64,000 bases of DNA from the NCBI RefSeq assembly GCF_000142905.1, contig NW_013657643.1:293089-357088 (forward strand). The letters run 5' to 3'. Shown piece after piece: positions 50,738 to 63,306 of this stretch. Both the position numbers and the translations under genes were made by a program. This DNA comes from Thecamonas trahens ATCC 50062. Its lineage: Eukaryota; Protista; Apusomonadida. Every line of letters starts with the position of its first letter. Position 1 is the stretch's first letter. Under the pieces are notes generated by a model. That model searched no databases, was not told where the DNA came from, and worked only from the letters and a program-made list of their open reading frames with translations.

Positions 50738-51971
50738 TATGTGCGTCTTGTGTTGGTGCAGAAAGTGTCGAGGCGGGAGACTGGCGTGAGGTGTGGGTGG
50801 CAACTTGCCGTGCTGCCTGGAGTCCGCGTGGGCAACGGAAGGAATTTTTGGTTGTTGACTGTAGTTTTCCCATTTTTTTTTGGGCGTTGTTGTTGTGTGT
50901 GTGTTAGCATGTGGATGTGTACGTGAGAGAGAGAGAGAGAGAGTAGGGGAGGGAGTTGTGTATACGTAGCTGGTGGGAGCATACTGCGGAAGGTGAAGGA
51001 GCGTGGGGCGACACTCGGCGAAAACAGGGGGGCGGGGGGGGGCAGGGGGCCGACTGACGCGAATGATGGCGATCCAGGTGCAAGAATGGCCGTAGAGGTC
51101 AACGGATGAGGCGAGTGGGGGGGAAGGGGGGGAAGGGGCGGGTGGGCGGGCAAAGATAACCCGATCAGGCGACCAAGAGGGGAAGCCCCAACCCCAGGTG
51201 GCGATTACTCCGTCTCGAGGCTTGGCTGGCGATGCTGTTGTCTTTCTTGCTGTTCTTCTGCAAGCCCCAGGTGGTATGTGCTTTCCATCTCGCCGGTGGT
51301 CGGCATTGTCCCAGTTACAGCGACATCTACTGGAGTAAGAAGAGTCGCCAGTGCAATGGCGGACACGACATGCTCGCAAGTTGGAGCAGAGCGAGATGCG
51401 CGGAAGAAGACAGATTGGGCCACTAGGCGAGACTAGGAGGTAGAAGAAGCGAGAAAGTGGATGGCACTACTATGCTCTGGTATGTCAGCCTGAGCTATCC
51501 GTGTCGAGTCACGTAGTGAGGGGGGAGTGCCCAGGAGGAGCAAGAGAGGCCAAGTCACGGTCGCCCGGTTCGGTTGCCGTGAGTAGACGTCGATGAGTAG
51601 GAGAGACTTGAGGGGCTACGCTGGACGAGGCTATTGTTTTTACTCACAAAAAGTTCATGGTCGAGATAGCAACGGGGAACTGGCGAGTAGAGAAGATGGT
51701 GGAATGAAAGTGGGGGCTTGTGTAGTGGTACTGGGAGGCGATGTAGGGCGTCGCTGCGGAGGTCATATATTTTTTGGTAACACCGTTTCGGGGAATCCGA
51801 AGCAAGACCAAATGCCTCAGCGACGGCCTGAAAGCAGCAAGCTGCAACCGAGAGTACACCTCACGCACTCTGACCACACACTTGGAGGGGCTAGTGACGA
51901 GAGCATAGAGCTGTGGCTGACAACACTTGCGTGGCTCTTGCTGGCATTGTACAAGCGCTGCGAGTAGAAAC

Positions 51972-54815
51972 ATGTCGGACAAGAACCTCGCGACACCCGA
52001 GCGTGTGGCTTTGAAGGAAGATTTCAAGGCCATGCTGAAGGAGAAGGGCATGACGCAGGCTCAGTTTGCGAAGATGCATGGCTTGCACTCATCGTCGGTG
52101 TCAACGGCTGTCAACCCAACGACACCCGAGACGCAGCGAGTGAAGGAGCGGACGATCATCATGAGAGAGGTGGCGGCGTGGCTTGCGGCGCCGGCGGCAG
52201 CGGCGGAGACGACACCCTCGCGGACACAGGCGTCACGATCTCCATCCGCAGAGGGTGGCGGTAGTGATGGACTGCCGACACCCGAGCGTGTGGCTTTGAA
52301 GGAAGATTTCAAGGCCATGCTGAAGGAGAAGGGCATGACGCAGGCTCAGTTTGCGAAGATGCATGGCTTGGACCCATCCTTGGTCTCGAAGGCCGTCAGG
52401 CCAAAGACGCCCGAGAGTCGGCGAGTCAACGCGCGGAAAGTAGTGCGTGAGGCGGTCAATGTATGGCGGGCCGAGAGAGTTCGCGATTGTGAAGATGATC
52501 GCCGGCCAGCACCTCCCGATCTAGGCGAGCTCCCGACGCACCGCTTGGTGGCAGACCCATCCCAGATGCTTGTAGCCGTGTACGCGGCGGGCCATCCTAT
52601 GCACGTCCGTGACCACATCCGCGCCTCGATGCAGCTGCCAAAGCCCAAGACGAAGACCGCTGTTGCGTTTGCCGCCATGACCGAGCCAATCGGTGGTCCA
52701 GACGTGGCACAGGGACTGGCACGTCTTGCGTGTGCAGAGCTGGACTTTGACCGCCTTGTCAACTTTATGGACGATGATGGCGAGGCGCTTTCGCATGCTG
52801 TCGCTGAAGTCATGGGTGGCACCGGTGCGGGCGATGAGTCCCTAGTCTGCGACGGCGGTGTGCTTGGCGAAGCGATATCCATTGACCCCCCCGAAGAGGG
52901 AGGATTCAAGGTGGTTGGCGTCCGATCGCGGCCCGACGGCCCAGTTGATGCCGGCTTTGTGGTGCTTCTGCGCAAGGTCGTGAAGCCCAATGATGTTGGA
53001 GCGCTCCAGCTTATGCGGCTCACGCATGAAGTCAAGAGCGTGATCAGCGAAAGGATGGAGTCGTGGGTCGAGCAGCGATTCGACATGAGCCAGCTCGAGA
53101 ACGGTAACCGAGATGCAGTGTTTCTGCGCGATTCCCCCGACACTGATGGCGTCGGCAAGCACCAGACTTTTGACAACCAAGTCGGCGCTGCCGAGCGCAT
53201 GTATGAGGTCATTGTCAAGCATCTGAGCCAGGAGCGGATGCGTGAGTTTACCTCCATCCACGCCCTTATCCTCACCCCCAACCGTGTCTCGCTCTGCGAG
53301 CAGACCCAGCAGCGATGCGATTTGTTTGCCGCTCATCTGGAGGGACTTGGCCTCGCAAACCTTGTCACGACCGAGGTACTGCAGGCTGGCCGGGGCGCGG
53401 AGAACCTTGCAGGCCGGACAAAAGCTTTGCTGAAGTTGATCACAAAGTCACCACGCACGCTCTTTCTGGTCATTCAGGACGAGTGCCACTGGGGTGCGGG
53501 CTTGATGAAGCAAAAAGGCTCCAAGAAGGAGTCGGACGGCGCCGGCTCGAGCTCGGGCAAGCAGACACAGGCATCGGTCATCAGCTCGATTCTACTTCAC
53601 AAGACGTTTCTGGAGGCTGTGGTCGATACCCAAAACGTGATGGTGGTGCAGGTCTCGGCGACACCGCACAACCAGCTCATCCCGCACTGCACGATGAGGG
53701 ACCACGTGGTGGACATGCTCGCCAACGGAGGCCGGCCGCCGTCGTACAACGGCCTCGACGAGCTTGTCTTTAAGGAAAGGTGGCATGCCGATGAAAGCTT
53801 GGAGGACTTGCTCGATGCCGACGACGACGAGCTGCGGAGTCTAGCGGCGATCTTCTTCCACGCGCGGACTAGCGTGTCGACGCGCATCTACGTCGACCTG
53901 GTGCAGCTGTTGTGGTACGCGCGAGCCATCGAGCGCAAGGACCGCCATCCGCTTGTCGCGCCGCTGCTCGAGGGGAAGCAAGTTGTGCATGCGGTGCGTC
54001 TCTCGTCGAGCAAGAGTCTGGCTCTCTTTGCTAGGGCCATCGGATCGTTGATGGCTGTCGATGCGCCCGAGGTTGCGGTTGTGTACTCGCGGTCGGGCAC
54101 GGGCTTTGAGACGGTTAGTGCGCGGTTTGCAGAGAGCAACGAGACGCAGTTCTCCCGGCTTGGGGCATGTCCGACGCTGTTGGTTCTGGTTGACAAGGGC
54201 CGAATGGGCGACTCATTCCCACCGAACTTTGCAGCCTTTGATCTCCGAGGGCGGTATAGGTCTGTGGTCTCACAGTGGGCCTCGTTTGATCAGGACGTTG
54301 GGCGTGCGTTTGGCCACAACACCATATGCGAGGTGCACTCGTCACAGGCGGCGCGCAACCTGGCCGAGTTTGTAGCTAACACCAAGTTTAACGATCCGTC
54401 GTGCGACTACGTGGCTGCGGCGGCGCGCGAAGAACTCATCAAGACGGTCGGACAACACGTCGAGGCTGGCGACGATGATGGCGACGATGAGGAGACTGCA
54501 GGAGAGCTCGAGAATGCGGCTGAAGAGGCCAACGAAATTGGTTTCCTTTCCGTGGAGCACGTGCTGAGCGCGACACATGCGCTCGCGATGTACAAGGATC
54601 AAGACAAGCACTATCGCCAGATCCGCAAGTCTATCTCCGCGCGGATTGTGCTCACCGCCGAGCCACAGTGCGGCAAGACCGGGACGTTCCTGCACCTCAT
54701 CGAGCTGTGTGCGAGGGCCATCCCGAACGATCGCGTGACACCATTGATGGCCGCGATCAATAAGCTGTCTTTGGCCGAGCGTGCCGAGCTTGACAAGTTT
54801 CTCAACAACAGCTAG
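51972..54815 (+). CDS. Circularly permuted superfamily-2 helicase/ATPase with two N-terminal HTH (XRE/Cro-like) repeats
   Basis: Motif Ia LILTPNRVSLCEQT, II IQDECHWG, III VSATP, V DKGRMGDSFP and VI QDVGRAFG. Walker A (IVLTAEPQCGKT) occurs only at the C-terminus. Confidence 0.8.
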   Translation: MSDKNLATPERVALKEDFKAMLKEKGMTQAQFAKMHGLHSSSVSTAVNPTTPETQRVKERTIIMREVAAWLAAPAAAAETTPSRTQASRSPSAEGGGSDGLPTPERVALKEDFKAMLKEKGMTQAQFAKMHGLDPSLVSKAVRPKTPESRRVNARKVVREAVNVWRAERVRDCEDDRRPAPPDLGELPTHRLVADPSQMLVAVYAAGHPMHVRDHIRASMQLPKPKTKTAVAFAAMTEPIGGPDVAQGLARLACAELDFDRLVNFMDDDGEALSHAVAEVMGGTGAGDESLVCDGGVLGEAISIDPPEEGGFKVVGVRSRPDGPVDAGFVVLLRKVVKPNDVGALQLMRLTHEVKSVISERMESWVEQRFDMSQLENGNRDAVFLRDSPDTDGVGKHQTFDNQVGAAERMYEVIVKHLSQERMREFTSIHALILTPNRVSLCEQTQQRCDLFAAHLEGLGLANLVTTEVLQAGRGAENLAGRTKALLKLITKSPRTLFLVIQDECHWGAGLMKQKGSKKESDGAGSSSGKQTQASVISSILLHKTFLEAVVDTQNVMVVQVSATPHNQLIPHCTMRDHVVDMLANGGRPPSYNGLDELVFKERWHADESLEDLLDADDDELRSLAAIFFHARTSVSTRIYVDLVQLLWYARAIERKDRHPLVAPLLEGKQVVHAVRLSSSKSLALFARAIGSLMAVDAPEVAVVYSRSGTGFETVSARFAESNETQFSRLGACPTLLVLVDKGRMGDSFPPNFAAFDLRGRYRSVVSQWASFDQDVGRAFGHNTICEVHSSQAARNLAEFVANTKFNDPSCDYVAAAAREELIKTVGQHVEAGDDDGDDEETAGELENAAEEANEIGFLSVEHVLSATHALAMYKDQDKHYRQIRKSISARIVLTAEPQCGKTGTFLHLIELCARAIPNDRVTPLMAAINKLSLAERAELDKFLNNS
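51991..52370 (+). repeat. Identical 95-bp coding duplication (51991-52085 and 52276-52370) covering the HTH core
   Basis: cgacacccgagcgtgtggctttgaag...gcatggcttg occurs twice, 285 nt apart, encoding TPERVALKEDFKAMLKEKGMTQAQFAKMHGL. Confidence 0.95.
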
Positions 54816-55414
54816 TGATTGGTGTCTGCCAGCGCAGGCCTACCGCCCAGTCAGCACTGGCGAGCGCGCATCGCAGCGAGCGAGCGACGAACGGGAGACG
54901 AAACAAAGAACACCATGTACTCTGCGACAAACACTCTCGGTTGCTGGTTGAGCGGTCGCTCTGCTGGCTCGACGGTTTAAGATATTCCTCGCAAGCGCTG
55001 CGCTGGCCTCCAGTGCCAGCACATCGAGCCGATTGGCACGGTGACCCATACATACATAAGCTGCAGCCGCACGCTCGCGCATACCCGAGATCAAGGTTAG
55101 AATTGGGCGCTCAGAGGGTGCCCGTCGTCGTCGTCGTCGTCGCAGATCGTCATCCAAGGGTGAGTAGGTGCCTTCCCGCTCCATCGGAGCTGACTGTCTC
55201 GACGCCATCGGAGCTCTCAGCGTAGTATGGCTGCGAGTGCAAGCAACTCGTAGCAGTCGCGGCAAAAAACGACGATGCTACGAACAACCGAAACGAACGT
55301 CGCCGCCTTGCCACAGCACCGTTTGATCACGATCGCGAACACGATCACGATCACGACCACCTCCCCCCCCCCCCCCCCCCACCCACCCACCCCCACCCAC
55401 CCCCACTGCCGCGC

Positions 55415-56381: not shown

Positions 56382-57817
56382 TTACAGCAGGTCGTCGTCA
56401 CCATCGTCGGGCACGGCAATGTCCTGGAGCTTGGCGAGCTCGGCCTCCATGGCGGCCTTGGCCTCGTCGGAGATCTCGACGGTCGGCGGAGCGAGGGCCG
56501 GCGACTTGACGATCTCGAGGTTAGGGTCGTCGACGAGCTTGCGGGCGAGGTAGAGGAACGGCTTCTCGTAGTTGTAGTTGTTCTTGGCCGAGATGTCGTA
56601 GTACTGCAGGTTGCGCTTGCGGTGGAAGATGATGTGGCGGGCCTTGACCTGGCGGGCCGACGAGTCGACCTTGTTGCCGACAAGCACAATGGGGATGGCG
56701 TCGGTGCAGACGCGAGTCAGGTCGCGGTACCAGTTGGCGACGTTGTTGTACGTCGGGCGCGAGGTGACATCGAACATGATGATAGCCGCCTCACCCTGGA
56801 TGTAGTACCCGTCGCGGAGGCCGCCGAACTTCTCCTGGCCAGCCGTGTCCCACACGTTGAAACGCAGCGGGCCGCGGTTGGTGTGGAAGACGAGCCGGTT
56901 GACCTCGACGCCGAGCGTGGCCACGTACGTCTTCTCGAACTCGCCAGTGATGTGGCGCTTGACAAAGGTGGTCTGTGCAGTGTGGGATGAGAGGGAGGGA
57001 GTGAGTGGGTGTGGGGGCAGGGTGGTGTCGTGAAGACATGGCCATGCTGGCTGCGACCATGATGATGATGGCTGCGACCATGATGATGGTGGCTGCGACC
57101 ATGATGATGATGGCTGCGACCATGATGATGATGGCTGCGACCATGATGATGATGGCTGCGACCATGATGATGGTGGCTGCGACCATGATGATGATGATGG
57201 CTGCGAGCACCATGATGATGGTGGCTGCGACCATGATGATGATGATGGCTGCGACCACCATGATGGCTGCGACCACCATGATGATGATGGCTGCGAGCAC
57301 ATTGCCCAAGGCGACCATACTACGACACGCACGCCGCACTTGCCAACCTGCTCCTCACCGTGTCGCACTCCCATGACCAGACGGCCGCGAGCCAAGCAAA
57401 GACACACTCATACCATGCATAGAAACAGAAGGTATTGGCAAGAACAAGAGCATGGGCATGATGTGGGGTAGGGGGGGAGGGGGGGGGGGGTAGTGGGCAT
57501 GGGTATGGGAGGGAGTGTGGCCAGGAGAAGACGACGTGACCAGGGCGACAAGGAAGGAAAATGGGCGCGAAGTTGGCAATGGCCAACACGAACATTCGCG
57601 TGCGGAGGGGGGGAAGGGGGAGGGGGGGGGCAGGGACATGGCGACACGGCGACACGGCGACATGACGAGACAGGGAGACGGGGAAAGGAGGGCAAGGGAG
57701 AAGAGGTAGAGAGGTGGCAGATGTAGAGGGGGGGGAGGGAAGGGGGGGAAGGCGTACCTTGCCAACACCGCCGTCACCGACGAGGAGAAGCTTGAATGTG
57801 GGCATGTCGTCCGCCAT
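56382..57817 (-). CDS. RAN: Ran GTPase; exons 57758-57817 and 56382-56972
   Basis: [13 protein letters not shown]|[43 protein letters not shown] and an acidic tail (DDGDDDLL), 216 aa. Intron 56973-57757 is GTACGC...CACAG. Confidence 0.97.
57043..57302. repeat. Intronic minisatellite, ~21-nt unit GGCTGCGACC(ATG)n, about 12 copies
   Basis: Tandem units with variable ATG-triplet number inside the Ran intron. Confidence 0.92.
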
Positions 57818-62082: not shown

Positions 62083-63306
62083 TTACATGGGCTCGAGCGC
62101 CCAGACAATAGTGGCGAGGCGCTTCTTTGGAATGCCAAAGTCGGCGAGCTTTGACTTTGTCCGATCCTCGAGCTTGACGTTCCAGTAGCAGCGGTCGGTG
62201 AACCTGCCTGCGGCTGCGGCGGCGGTGACGAGGGTAAGGGTCTCGTCGAGCGACGATGCCGGGAGGCAGGTGAGGTCCGATGGCGGGAAAAAGTGCTCGA
62301 CCTGGACTACGACGTCGTTGTCGTCCGTGGTGCAGAGGGCAACGTCGAGCGCCTCGCCCCATCGGCCGCCGGCGACCGGATTGCGGACCGGCACGGCGTG
62401 AAGAGTTGAAAAGTAGTTGATCTGCGGGCGGCGGTGCGCCATCAGCTCGTTAAGAAGCAGCCACGACGGATGGACAATCAGGTGGGCAAGCGAGACGCCG
62501 TCGCGCGCGAGGTAGAATGCGCGGAGCCATGGTGAGAGGTCAAAGCCGACCGCAGCCTCGAGCGCCTTGAGCTCGCGCTGTGTCACGCCCGACGACGCGC
62601 GGGCGGTGAGGAACGAGGCGGGTGCCAGCGAGGCCGGCGGCGGATCGGTGGCGGCTGGGCTGTGCTTGGGCGGCTTCATGTCGTGGACAATGGCGTCAGG
62701 GAGGGACTCCTCGAGAGCGACGATGCGCTCGCGAAGCTCGGCAGTCGCCACCGTGAGGGCGTCGTCGTTGGCCAGCTCGTCGACCTTGTCGTAGGCATCG
62801 TCACCGATGCGGCACCACGCGTTGAGCCAGGCATTCTCCCGGGCTCCAGCCAAGACATGCGTCGCCGAGCAGACCACGCCCTCCCGGGGAGAGCCCTCCC
62901 ACTCGTCGGTCATCAGTGAGGCGGCCGAGAAGATGATCGACTGGGCCAGAGCCGTCCGAACCTGGGCGAGCATCTTGACATCCAAGTCGCCAAGGTCACC
63001 AGCAGACTTGGCAGCAGAACCATCATCAGTCGGCATGCTCGGAGGCGGCAAGTCGATCTCGGCCTTGTCCACACTCGCCAGAAAGGCATCGGCCACAAAC
63101 TCGCTCCGATCAGCCTCAGCGAGCGTCGCACTCAGAGCGTCGAGAACAGAGCCATTGCCTGGGCTGGAAAAATTGACCACAGCACGGTTGACCAGTGCCT
63201 CCACCTCTTCCACAGCAGAAGGTGCAAACTCAATGGGGTGGAACTCACCGAACATCCTCCGTCCTTCTGCGGACATGAAATCAGCAAAGGTAGTGCTTTC
63301 CGACAT
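62083..63306 (-). CDS. SMI1/KNR4 (SUKH)-domain protein with a possible N-terminal tandem histone fold
   Basis: SUKH motif SSGVTQRELKALEAAVGFDLSPWLRAFYLARDG. N-terminal helices resemble H2B-like and H2A-like segments. Confidence 0.7.
   Translation of the reverse strand: MSESTTFADFMSAEGRRMFGEFHPIEFAPSAVEEVEALVNRAVVNFSSPGNGSVLDALSATLAEADRSEFVADAFLASVDKAEIDLPPPSMPTDDGSAAKSAGDLGDLDVKMLAQVRTALAQSIIFSAASLMTDEWEGSPREGVVCSATHVLAGARENAWLNAWCRIGDDAYDKVDELANDDALTVATAELRERIVALEESLPDAIVHDMKPPKHSPAATDPPPASLAPASFLTARASSGVTQRELKALEAAVGFDLSPWLRAFYLARDGVSLAHLIVHPSWLLLNELMAHRRPQINYFSTLHAVPVRNPVAGGRWGEALDVALCTTDDNDVVVQVEHFFPPSDLTCLPASSLDETLTLVTAAAAAGRFTDRCYWNVKLEDRTKSKLADFGIPKKRLATIVWALEPM

What the first reader, a model, noticed from the sequence alone, without database searches (positions are those of the whole stretch)
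51972..54815. Circularly permuted SF2 helicase with Walker A transplanted to the C-terminus and tandem HTH domains
Seen: motif order is Q-like (FDNQVGAA, ~53170), Ia (~53265), II DECH (53478), III SAT (53655), V (~54192), VI QDVGRAFG (54291), an acidic linker, and only then Walker A IVLTAEPQCGKT plus its helix (54657-54680). The strand-P-loop-helix that normally sits between Q and Ia is missing there. Established: a circularly permuted SF2 domain is described in GREB1-family proteins, where it is fused to a TET/JBP-associated glycosyltransferase linked to DNA base modification. Here no glycosyltransferase is visible, the catalytic motifs look intact, and two XRE-like HTHs lead the protein. The gene is intronless with less biased codons and lower-GC flanks. 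Inference: an active stand-alone DNA-targeted ATPase, possibly mobile or viral in origin and part of an undescribed DNA-modification or defence system.
Basis: partly seen in the sequence, partly recalled or inferred. Interest (0 to 1): 0.85.

Follow-up and report, generated by a model that had tools for sequence, protein, structure and literature searches.

The report
Stand-alone GREB1-type motor with DNA-binding heads
This intact protist gene encodes a member of the already described GREB1 family of rearranged helicase-type motors; it lacks the sugar- or methyl-transferring enzyme that many relatives carry and has two predicted DNA-binding heads instead, so it likely acts as a DNA-targeted ATP motor.

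Summary
The 947-codon ORF is Thecamonas trahens AMSG_07836. It matches Pfam PF20692 cpSF2-GREB1 (E 1.7e-107), and UniRef already gives it that label. A C-terminal Walker A and intact catalytic motifs are the family norm (79 of 79 relatives with both motifs). Modelling docks the C-terminal P-loop segment into RecA1 (score 0.77, best control 0.01), and the upstream GVGK is not conserved. Strain variants are 6 synonymous to 1 conservative, so the gene looks maintained. Three things differ from GREB1. (1) No glycosyltransferase or methyltransferase lies anywhere in the window. (2) It has a recently duplicated XRE-like HTH, seen in 0 of 133 relatives scanned. (3) Its best-scoring relatives mostly end in an Rrp8/nucleomethylin-like methyltransferase rather than TAGT (15 versus 5 of the top 30). 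I did not find that fusion in print, but could not read the primary 2013 paper. Recent viral or mobile origin is not supported. Likely function: an HTH-targeted, DNA-stimulated ATPase/translocase without its own writer enzyme (inferred, untested). The scan has noted this family before on other DNA.

The parts
51972..54815 (+). ORF, 947 aa (AMSG_07836; annotated in GenBank as 852 aa): HTH-HTH-unassigned region-cpSF2 motor-short helical tail
51991..52152 (+). Repeat copy 1, encoding XRE/Cro-like HTH 1
   Evidence: X8 contig 51263-52118 and X1 contig 52056-52305
52276..52437 (+). Repeat copy 2, encoding HTH 2; first 95 nt identical to copy 1, 18 differences after that, in the predicted recognition-helix half
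   Evidence: the 95-nt block is collapsed at about double depth in run X3
52479..53156 (+). Residues ~170-395, no family assigned
   Evidence: no Pfam hit, no Atlas hit, no match among stored relatives
53169..53240 (+). Q motif (Q403) and its helix; stays N-terminal
   Evidence: Q in 63 of 68 cores with a residue there; packs on the P-loop helix in the model
53259..53771 (+). RecA1 without its first strand and P-loop: motifs Ia, II (DECH), III (SATP)
53981..54335 (+). RecA2: motif IV region, V (KGRMGD), invariant DLRxRY, VI (QDVGRAFG)
54642..54719 (+). Transplanted strand, Walker A (AEPQCGKT) and helix; completes RecA1
54720..54815 (+). 32-residue two-helix tail, then stop; not detectably a methyltransferase remnant

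Best explanation
The gene encodes an intact cpSF2-GREB1-family motor with two XRE-like HTH domains and no fused writer enzyme, which likely binds DNA through the HTHs and would hydrolyse ATP to track along or remodel it. Shown: ORF, motif order, family membership, absence of TAGT or methyltransferase in the window, and conservation of the catalytic residues. Predicted: the C-terminal strand-P-loop-helix folds back into RecA1 beside the motif III strand and the Q-motif helix, rebuilding an ordinary SF2 ATP site. Inferred: ATPase activity, DNA as substrate, HTH-based targeting, and descent from a motor-plus-writer fusion whose writer was lost. In relatives the motor likely delivers a base-modifying enzyme (TAGT or Rrp8-like methyltransferase) to nucleic acid. 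Here it most likely acts alone as a site-targeted chromatin or transcription remodeller.
For: PF20692 361 bits against a cut-off of 26.2. Pfam's own profile carries the P-loop at positions 681-703 of 716. Among 85 full cores (chosen for having both Walker motifs), the query keeps the majority residue at 59 of the 68 columns conserved in at least 60%, including the unselected invariants A563, T564, D757, R759 and the near-invariants Q444, Y592, G746, Q774, G777, R778. AlphaFold2 with 71 sequences: pLDDT 80, pTM 0.82. SF2 fold: best VIA Z 13.8, rmsd 3.9, 326 aligned to RIG-I, tied with DEAH and RadD rows. Split-chain model of RecA1 plus the C-terminal segment: score 0.77 against best control 0.01 of 3; runs agree in at least 88% of contacts; partner pLDDT at least 76. 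That mark was reached by 51 of 78 solved and 2 of 108 mismatched calibration pairs. The strand 892-894 pairs with the motif III strand 558-561 and the helix packs on the Q helix; these are two parts of one domain, so the pass may come from memory of solved SF2 folds. A canonical-order relative (L048 ORF) carries the same PQxGKTG motif at its N-terminus: P-loop profile iE 9e-10 at residues 25-46, before DExH at about 100. The 7 coding variants in three metagenomes are 6 synonymous and 1 Val-to-Ile (p 0.001-0.003 against neutral), with indels only in the flanks. No TAGT or methyltransferase profile hit in the window's six frames. Relatives carry bromo, CW, OTU and ZZ domains, which fits chromatin work.
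Against: No activity has been measured for any family member in what I could read; human GREB1's copy is described as inactive (PMC7968844 passages). The query departs from the majority at 9 of 68 conserved columns, some non-conservatively (W582M, T658R, P789H, D827G; some may be alignment error), and sits on a long branch (32% best identity). The family lacks the second motif VI arginine of typical SF2 enzymes (typical motif recalled). Seven variants from low-depth contigs is a small sample. The best structural matches are RNA helicases, tied with DNA enzymes, so the substrate is not settled by fold. Whether one or two HTHs are translated is open (852 versus 947 aa).
Confidence: 0.6

Rival explanations
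1. Split motor-plus-writer system: the motor works in trans with a TAGT glycosyltransferase or Rrp8-like methyltransferase encoded elsewhere in the genome, and the HTHs set which DNA sites are modified.
For: 81 of 149 relatives carry a writer domain (47 TAGT, 33 methyltransferase, 1 both; own profiles), and many of the other 68 are fragments. 34 of 55 metagenome loci have one downstream (29 TAGT, 5 methyltransferase). Earlier AI notes describe phage versions split into two genes (unchecked here).
Against: No partner in 64 kb. Only a 32-residue tail follows the P-loop helix. The whole genome was not available to search.
Confidence: 0.2
2. A writer-less relic drifting towards a DNA-binding regulator: the motor is weakly active or dead, and selection acts mainly on fold or on HTH function.
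For: Long branch, several family-conserved positions changed, weakest codon bias of 18 window genes, young HTH duplication.
Against: Walker A, DECH, SAT, motif V and motif VI are all kept; 5 of the 7 strain variants fall in the motor and all 5 are synonymous; model confidence is high.
Confidence: 0.15
3. Cargo of a recently inserted mobile element or endogenous virus.
For: Phage-like HTH matches. Giant-virus helicases are the nearest by features (Atlas 0.96) and by fold in BFVD (E 5.6e-9). An 18-nt inverted repeat flanks the gene, and a dispersed repeat begins at 54931.
Against: No transposase, integrase or viral gene nearby; neighbours are housekeeping genes. All named sequence relatives are eukaryotic. 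No viral, phage, plasmid or prokaryote hit. Same flanks in other strains. GC3 is host-like.
Confidence: 0.05

Closest known systems
Pfam PF20692 cpSF2-GREB1 (GREB1/GREB1L and protist GREB1-like proteins)
   Same: Same domain and motif order, P-loop after motif VI; this protein already bears the UniRef label.
   Different: Human GREB1 has an N-terminal Zn domain, a helicase described as inactive and a C-terminal TAGT (PMC7968844 passages). Here the motifs are intact, there is no TAGT, and two HTHs lead.
cpSF2 + Rrp8/nucleomethylin-like methyltransferase fusions (Pelomyxa KAH3764601.1 and KAH3732779.1, Mastigella, Microstomoeca, Rotaria; P0003)
   Same: Best-scoring relatives: 15 of the top 30 by own profile; compact core; nearest tree row is P0003. 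Their methyltransferase matches PF05148 and PDB 2zfu (E 1.9e-20).
   Different: The query has no methyltransferase or detectable remnant. The tree position is unresolved: the AU test does not reject grouping with the main TAGT clade (p 0.247).
Small canonical-order ResIII-like SF2 proteins of giant viruses (Atlas clusters of 393-516 aa; BFVD A0A481YYN0, A0A7M3UPA4; L048 ORF)
   Same: Same fold; the L048 ORF shares the PQxGKTG, DExH and SATP signatures.
   Different: In L048 the P-loop is N-terminal. Motif order in the Atlas and BFVD entries was not inspected. That L048 is viral is inferred from its gene-dense, AT-rich contig.
Prokaryotic-type Zn ribbon-SF2-Methyltransf_8 fusions (P0162)
   Same: An SF2 motor joined to the same Rrp8-like methyltransferase.
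   Different: Canonical motif order and a different SF2 family.

Membership tests
cpSF2-GREB1 domain (PF20692) | Score above the curated cut-off | tested here: met
   361.3 bits against 26.2
cpSF2-GREB1 domain (PF20692) | Walker A located after motif VI | tested here: met
   (79 of 79 relatives with both motifs, out of 149)
cpSF2-GREB1 domain (PF20692) | C-terminal segment completes RecA1 | tested here: met
   prediction only:
SF2 ATPases | Two RecA domains with motifs Q, I, Ia, II, III, V, VI | tested here: met
   motif VI lacks the second Arg family-wide
SF2 ATPases | Nucleic-acid-stimulated ATP hydrolysis | not testable with these tools
   needs an assay
GREB1/GREB1-like full proteins | C-terminal TAGT glycosyltransferase (PF20691) | tested here: not met
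   ORF ends 44 residues after GKT; no TAGT hit in six frames of the window; GET4 starts 600 nt downstream
GREB1/GREB1-like full proteins | Belongs to the main TAGT-bearing clade | tested here: inconclusive
   outside the 39-row clade (SH-aLRT 98), but AU p 0.247
cpSF2 + Rrp8-like methyltransferase fusions | C-terminal PF05148 domain | tested here: not met
   tail scores no better than shuffles (117 of 1000; 942 of 5000)
TET/JBP-TAGT DNA modification system | TET/JBP or TAGT partner genes | tested here: inconclusive
   none among 30 window ORFs scanned; whole genome not held
Strict circular permutation | One cut moves everything N-terminal of Ia, Q motif included, to the end | tested here: not met
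   Q403 stays N-terminal (63 of 68) while only strand-P-loop-helix is C-terminal; in L048 the Q-like motif directly precedes the P-loop strand
Mobile element or endogenous virus | Transposase, integrase or viral hallmark genes; terminal repeats | tested here: not met
   only one 18-nt inverted match

The most novel reading that the evidence does not exclude
The cpSF2 motor is the constant part of a eukaryotic motor-plus-swappable-writer system in which a DNA-type glycosyltransferase and an Rrp8-like methyltransferase replace one another. The Thecamonas protein is a writer-less, HTH-guided form that brings a separate writer to chosen DNA sequences, giving sequence-directed base modification in an apusomonad.
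Probability: 0.15. Interest if true: 0.75.

Novelty: new variant of a known kind. Interest (0 to 1): 0.38.

Why it matters
The headline oddity, a transplanted Walker A, is catalogued. The value lies elsewhere. First, this is a compact, writer-free copy with intact motifs, a convenient substrate to test whether GREB1-family motors hydrolyse ATP at all; I found no such test in my searches. Second, the relatives show a second branch fused to an Rrp8-like methyltransferase in amoebozoans, a choanoflagellate and a rotifer. This suggests that the writer is swappable and that Rrp8-like enzymes may act outside ribosome making. Third, the rearrangement leaves the Q motif in front, so it is a segment transplant rather than a simple circular permutation, and a canonical-order relative with the same P-loop signature exists.

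Tried and rejected
Upstream GVGKHQT as P-loop: rejected. Tail as a stump of the Rrp8-like domain: it looked plausible by eye but was not above shuffles or TAGT-tail controls; rejected. 3' misassembly: rejected. Single-sequence AlphaFold was unusable (pLDDT 39). Word-index protein searches found only the protein itself or 3 proteins. No PDB sequence relative of the motor. tblastn of phages and plasmids gave no match. Five scans of viral contigs and one of prokaryote genomes confirmed nothing; these pattern scans are insensitive, so this is not absence. Residues 170-400 gave no Atlas hit. No RNA holder listed. The sequential structure aligner left the C-terminal P-loop segment barely tested. Relatives labelled 'none' are not reliable stand-alone cases: in 6 loci (L003, L027, L028, L037, L039, L040) a stop follows soon after Walker A yet a writer lies downstream. 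Four proteins that end at one shared position were not checked at DNA level. For the tree and conservation counts, 65 of 149 relatives lacking one Walker motif were left out and one isoform (P0154) was added. 16 of 149 were not Pfam-scanned. Own profiles were trained on 22 methyltransferase and 17 TAGT members, which count among the hits; by Pfam alone PF05148 hits 17 of 133. Literature: Iyer et al. 2013 (PMC3763556) is not held, so I know it only as cited in PMC7968844 and PMC6163654; it or its supplements may already list this protein and the methyltransferase fusions. The search for 'cpSF2' returned only CPSF2 papers.

Full report
Setting. The window is eukaryotic: actin, GET4, Ran, PCNA, PARP and Brix genes are present. 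The ORF at 51972-54815 is Thecamonas trahens AMSG_07836, which UniRef names a GREB1-like circularly permuted SF2 helicase domain protein. No whole genome was held.

Observation. Pfam PF20692 scores 361 bits (E 1.7e-107), and three HTH families pass their cut-offs twice each. The HTHs sit in a 162-nt repeat, 285 nt apart, with the first 95 nt identical. The annotated 852-aa protein equals the ORF minus one repeat unit. Of the 10 equivalent cuts that end in AG, none starts with GT and three start with GC, so the short form is either a GC-AG intron or, more likely in my inference, an artefact of the repeat. Contigs from other runs hold the sequence between the copies and bridge motif VI, the linker and the P-loop.

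Family. A full HMMER search gave 217 representatives at E up to 0.001, of which 149 relatives were listed. All 133 that I scanned hit PF20692 and none hit an HTH family at E up to 1e-4. Each HTH copy also found nothing below E 1 among 160 stored proteins and 55 loci. In 79 of 79 relatives with both Walker motifs, Walker A follows DExH. In 85 aligned cores the query keeps 59 of 68 conserved columns and departs at 9. The upstream GVGK is not conserved. Intact motifs and the C-terminal P-loop are therefore the family norm, as an earlier AI note also said (e1-7365247).

Structure. AlphaFold2 with 71 sequences gave pLDDT 80 and pTM 0.82, with 93-98 over the C-terminal P-loop and helix. The fold is SF2 (best Z 13.8, rmsd 3.9, 326 aligned; many rows tied), and the sequential alignments stop before the transplanted segment. 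Folded as separate chains without alignment, RecA1 and the C-terminal segment scored 0.77 against a best control of 0.01 (3 controls; at least 88% contact agreement; partner pLDDT at least 76; calibration 51 of 78 solved and 2 of 108 mismatched pairs reach the mark). The strand pairs with the motif III strand and the helix packs on the Q-motif helix. From recalled SF2 topology this is the normal place of strand 1. Because these are two parts of one domain, the pass may reflect memory of solved folds. An ORF in locus L048 has the same PQxGKTG signature at its N-terminus, before DExH and SATP; this is the unpermuted order. The Q motif stays in front in the permuted family, so only strand, P-loop and helix moved.

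What follows the motor. By own profiles, 47 of 149 relatives carry TAGT, 33 an Rrp8-like methyltransferase, 1 both and 68 neither, many of them fragments; in the top 30 the counts are 5, 15 and 10. By Pfam alone PF05148 hits 17 of 133. The methyltransferase's best PDB match is nucleomethylin, 2zfu, at E 1.9e-20. Named carriers are Pelomyxa, Mastigella, Microstomoeca and Rotaria. Of 55 metagenome loci, 29 have TAGT and 5 the methyltransferase downstream. On a quick tree the query lies outside a 39-row TAGT-rich clade, in a mixed 5-row group with P0003 (methyltransferase) nearest, but the AU test does not reject joining it to that clade (p 0.247). Neither profile hits the window, and the tail is no detectable remnant. 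The gene is writer-less in cis.

Is it maintained, and is it foreign? Seven coding variants in three metagenomes are 6 synonymous and 1 Val-to-Ile (p 0.001-0.003), while indels fall only in the flanks; the sample is small and low in depth. Codon bias is the weakest of 18 window genes but not an outlier, and GC3 is host-like. No viral, phage, plasmid or prokaryotic relative of the permuted form was confirmed. Giant-virus helicases are nearest by features and among viral folds, which points at most to an old link.

Mechanism. Most likely (0.6) the HTH pair binds DNA sites and the reassembled SF2 core hydrolyses ATP to translocate or remodel, without a writer of its own. Rivals: partner writer in trans (0.2), decaying motor (0.15), recent mobile cargo (0.05). 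Activity, substrate and targeting are inferred.

Literature. PMC7968844 (passages and a supplement search) describes GREB1 as Zn domain, inactive permuted SF2 and TAGT, with GREB1-like proteins across many protist groups; it does not mention Thecamonas. PMC6163654 (passages) cites Iyer et al. 2013 for the same layout; that paper was not held. PMC4738411 (passages) defines the RAMA domain and has no mention of GREB1 or Rrp8; equating RAMA with DUF4357 is recalled. PMC7824862 (passages) was not relevant. Searches for GREB1 + helicase + methyltransferase + Rrp8 and Methyltransf 8 + helicase + giant virus gave 0 papers, and one search listed none on this fusion by title. The library lacks most subscription papers.

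Verdict. A real, intact gene and a new architectural variant of a known domain family. The writer-less HTH form and the methyltransferase-bearing branch of the family are the parts worth following. Interest 0.38.

Noticed in passing
P0003, P0004, P0009, P0012, P0015, P0024, P0028, P0033 and others; L001, L002, L032, L037, L050: A branch of cpSF2 proteins ends in an Rrp8/nucleomethylin-like methyltransferase instead of TAGT; P0048 carries both. N-terminal add-ons vary (WD40, OTU, bromo, kinase, caspase; a weak DUF4357 hit in P0003, E 0.019).
   Followed up: partly
L048:2491-3528: 345-aa canonical-order SF2 with the cpSF2-type PQxGKTG motif at its N-terminus, on a gene-dense 38% GC contig; a candidate unpermuted outgroup.
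   Followed up: partly
window 54931-55265: Dispersed repeat: many contigs of the same organism share pieces (54931-54983, 55014-55047, 55156-55265) and then run on into other sequence; possibly a short non-autonomous element.
   Followed up: partly
window 51838-51855 and 54933-54950: 18-nt inverted repeat (12 nt exact, found only at these two places in the window) flanking the gene; the right arm coincides with the start of the dispersed repeat. May be chance.
   Followed up: partly
window 52336-52510: In metagenome run X5 two contigs match HTH copy 2 and then continue into other sequence (loose ends at 52407 and 52510), hinting that the HTH module occurs in further genes.
   Followed up: no
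window 56991-57290 (-): Array of short repeats (SQPSSSW-like in one frame) inside the Ran gene region, probably intronic.
   Followed up: no
window 62083-63306 (-): 407-aa ORF with a weak SMI1/KNR4 (SUKH) hit (E 0.004, below cut-off).
   Followed up: no
P0030, P0043, P0052, P0156: A tight group of cpSF2 proteins that end at the same position about 40 residues after Walker A; possibly a second writer-less lineage, or a shared intron.
   Followed up: partly
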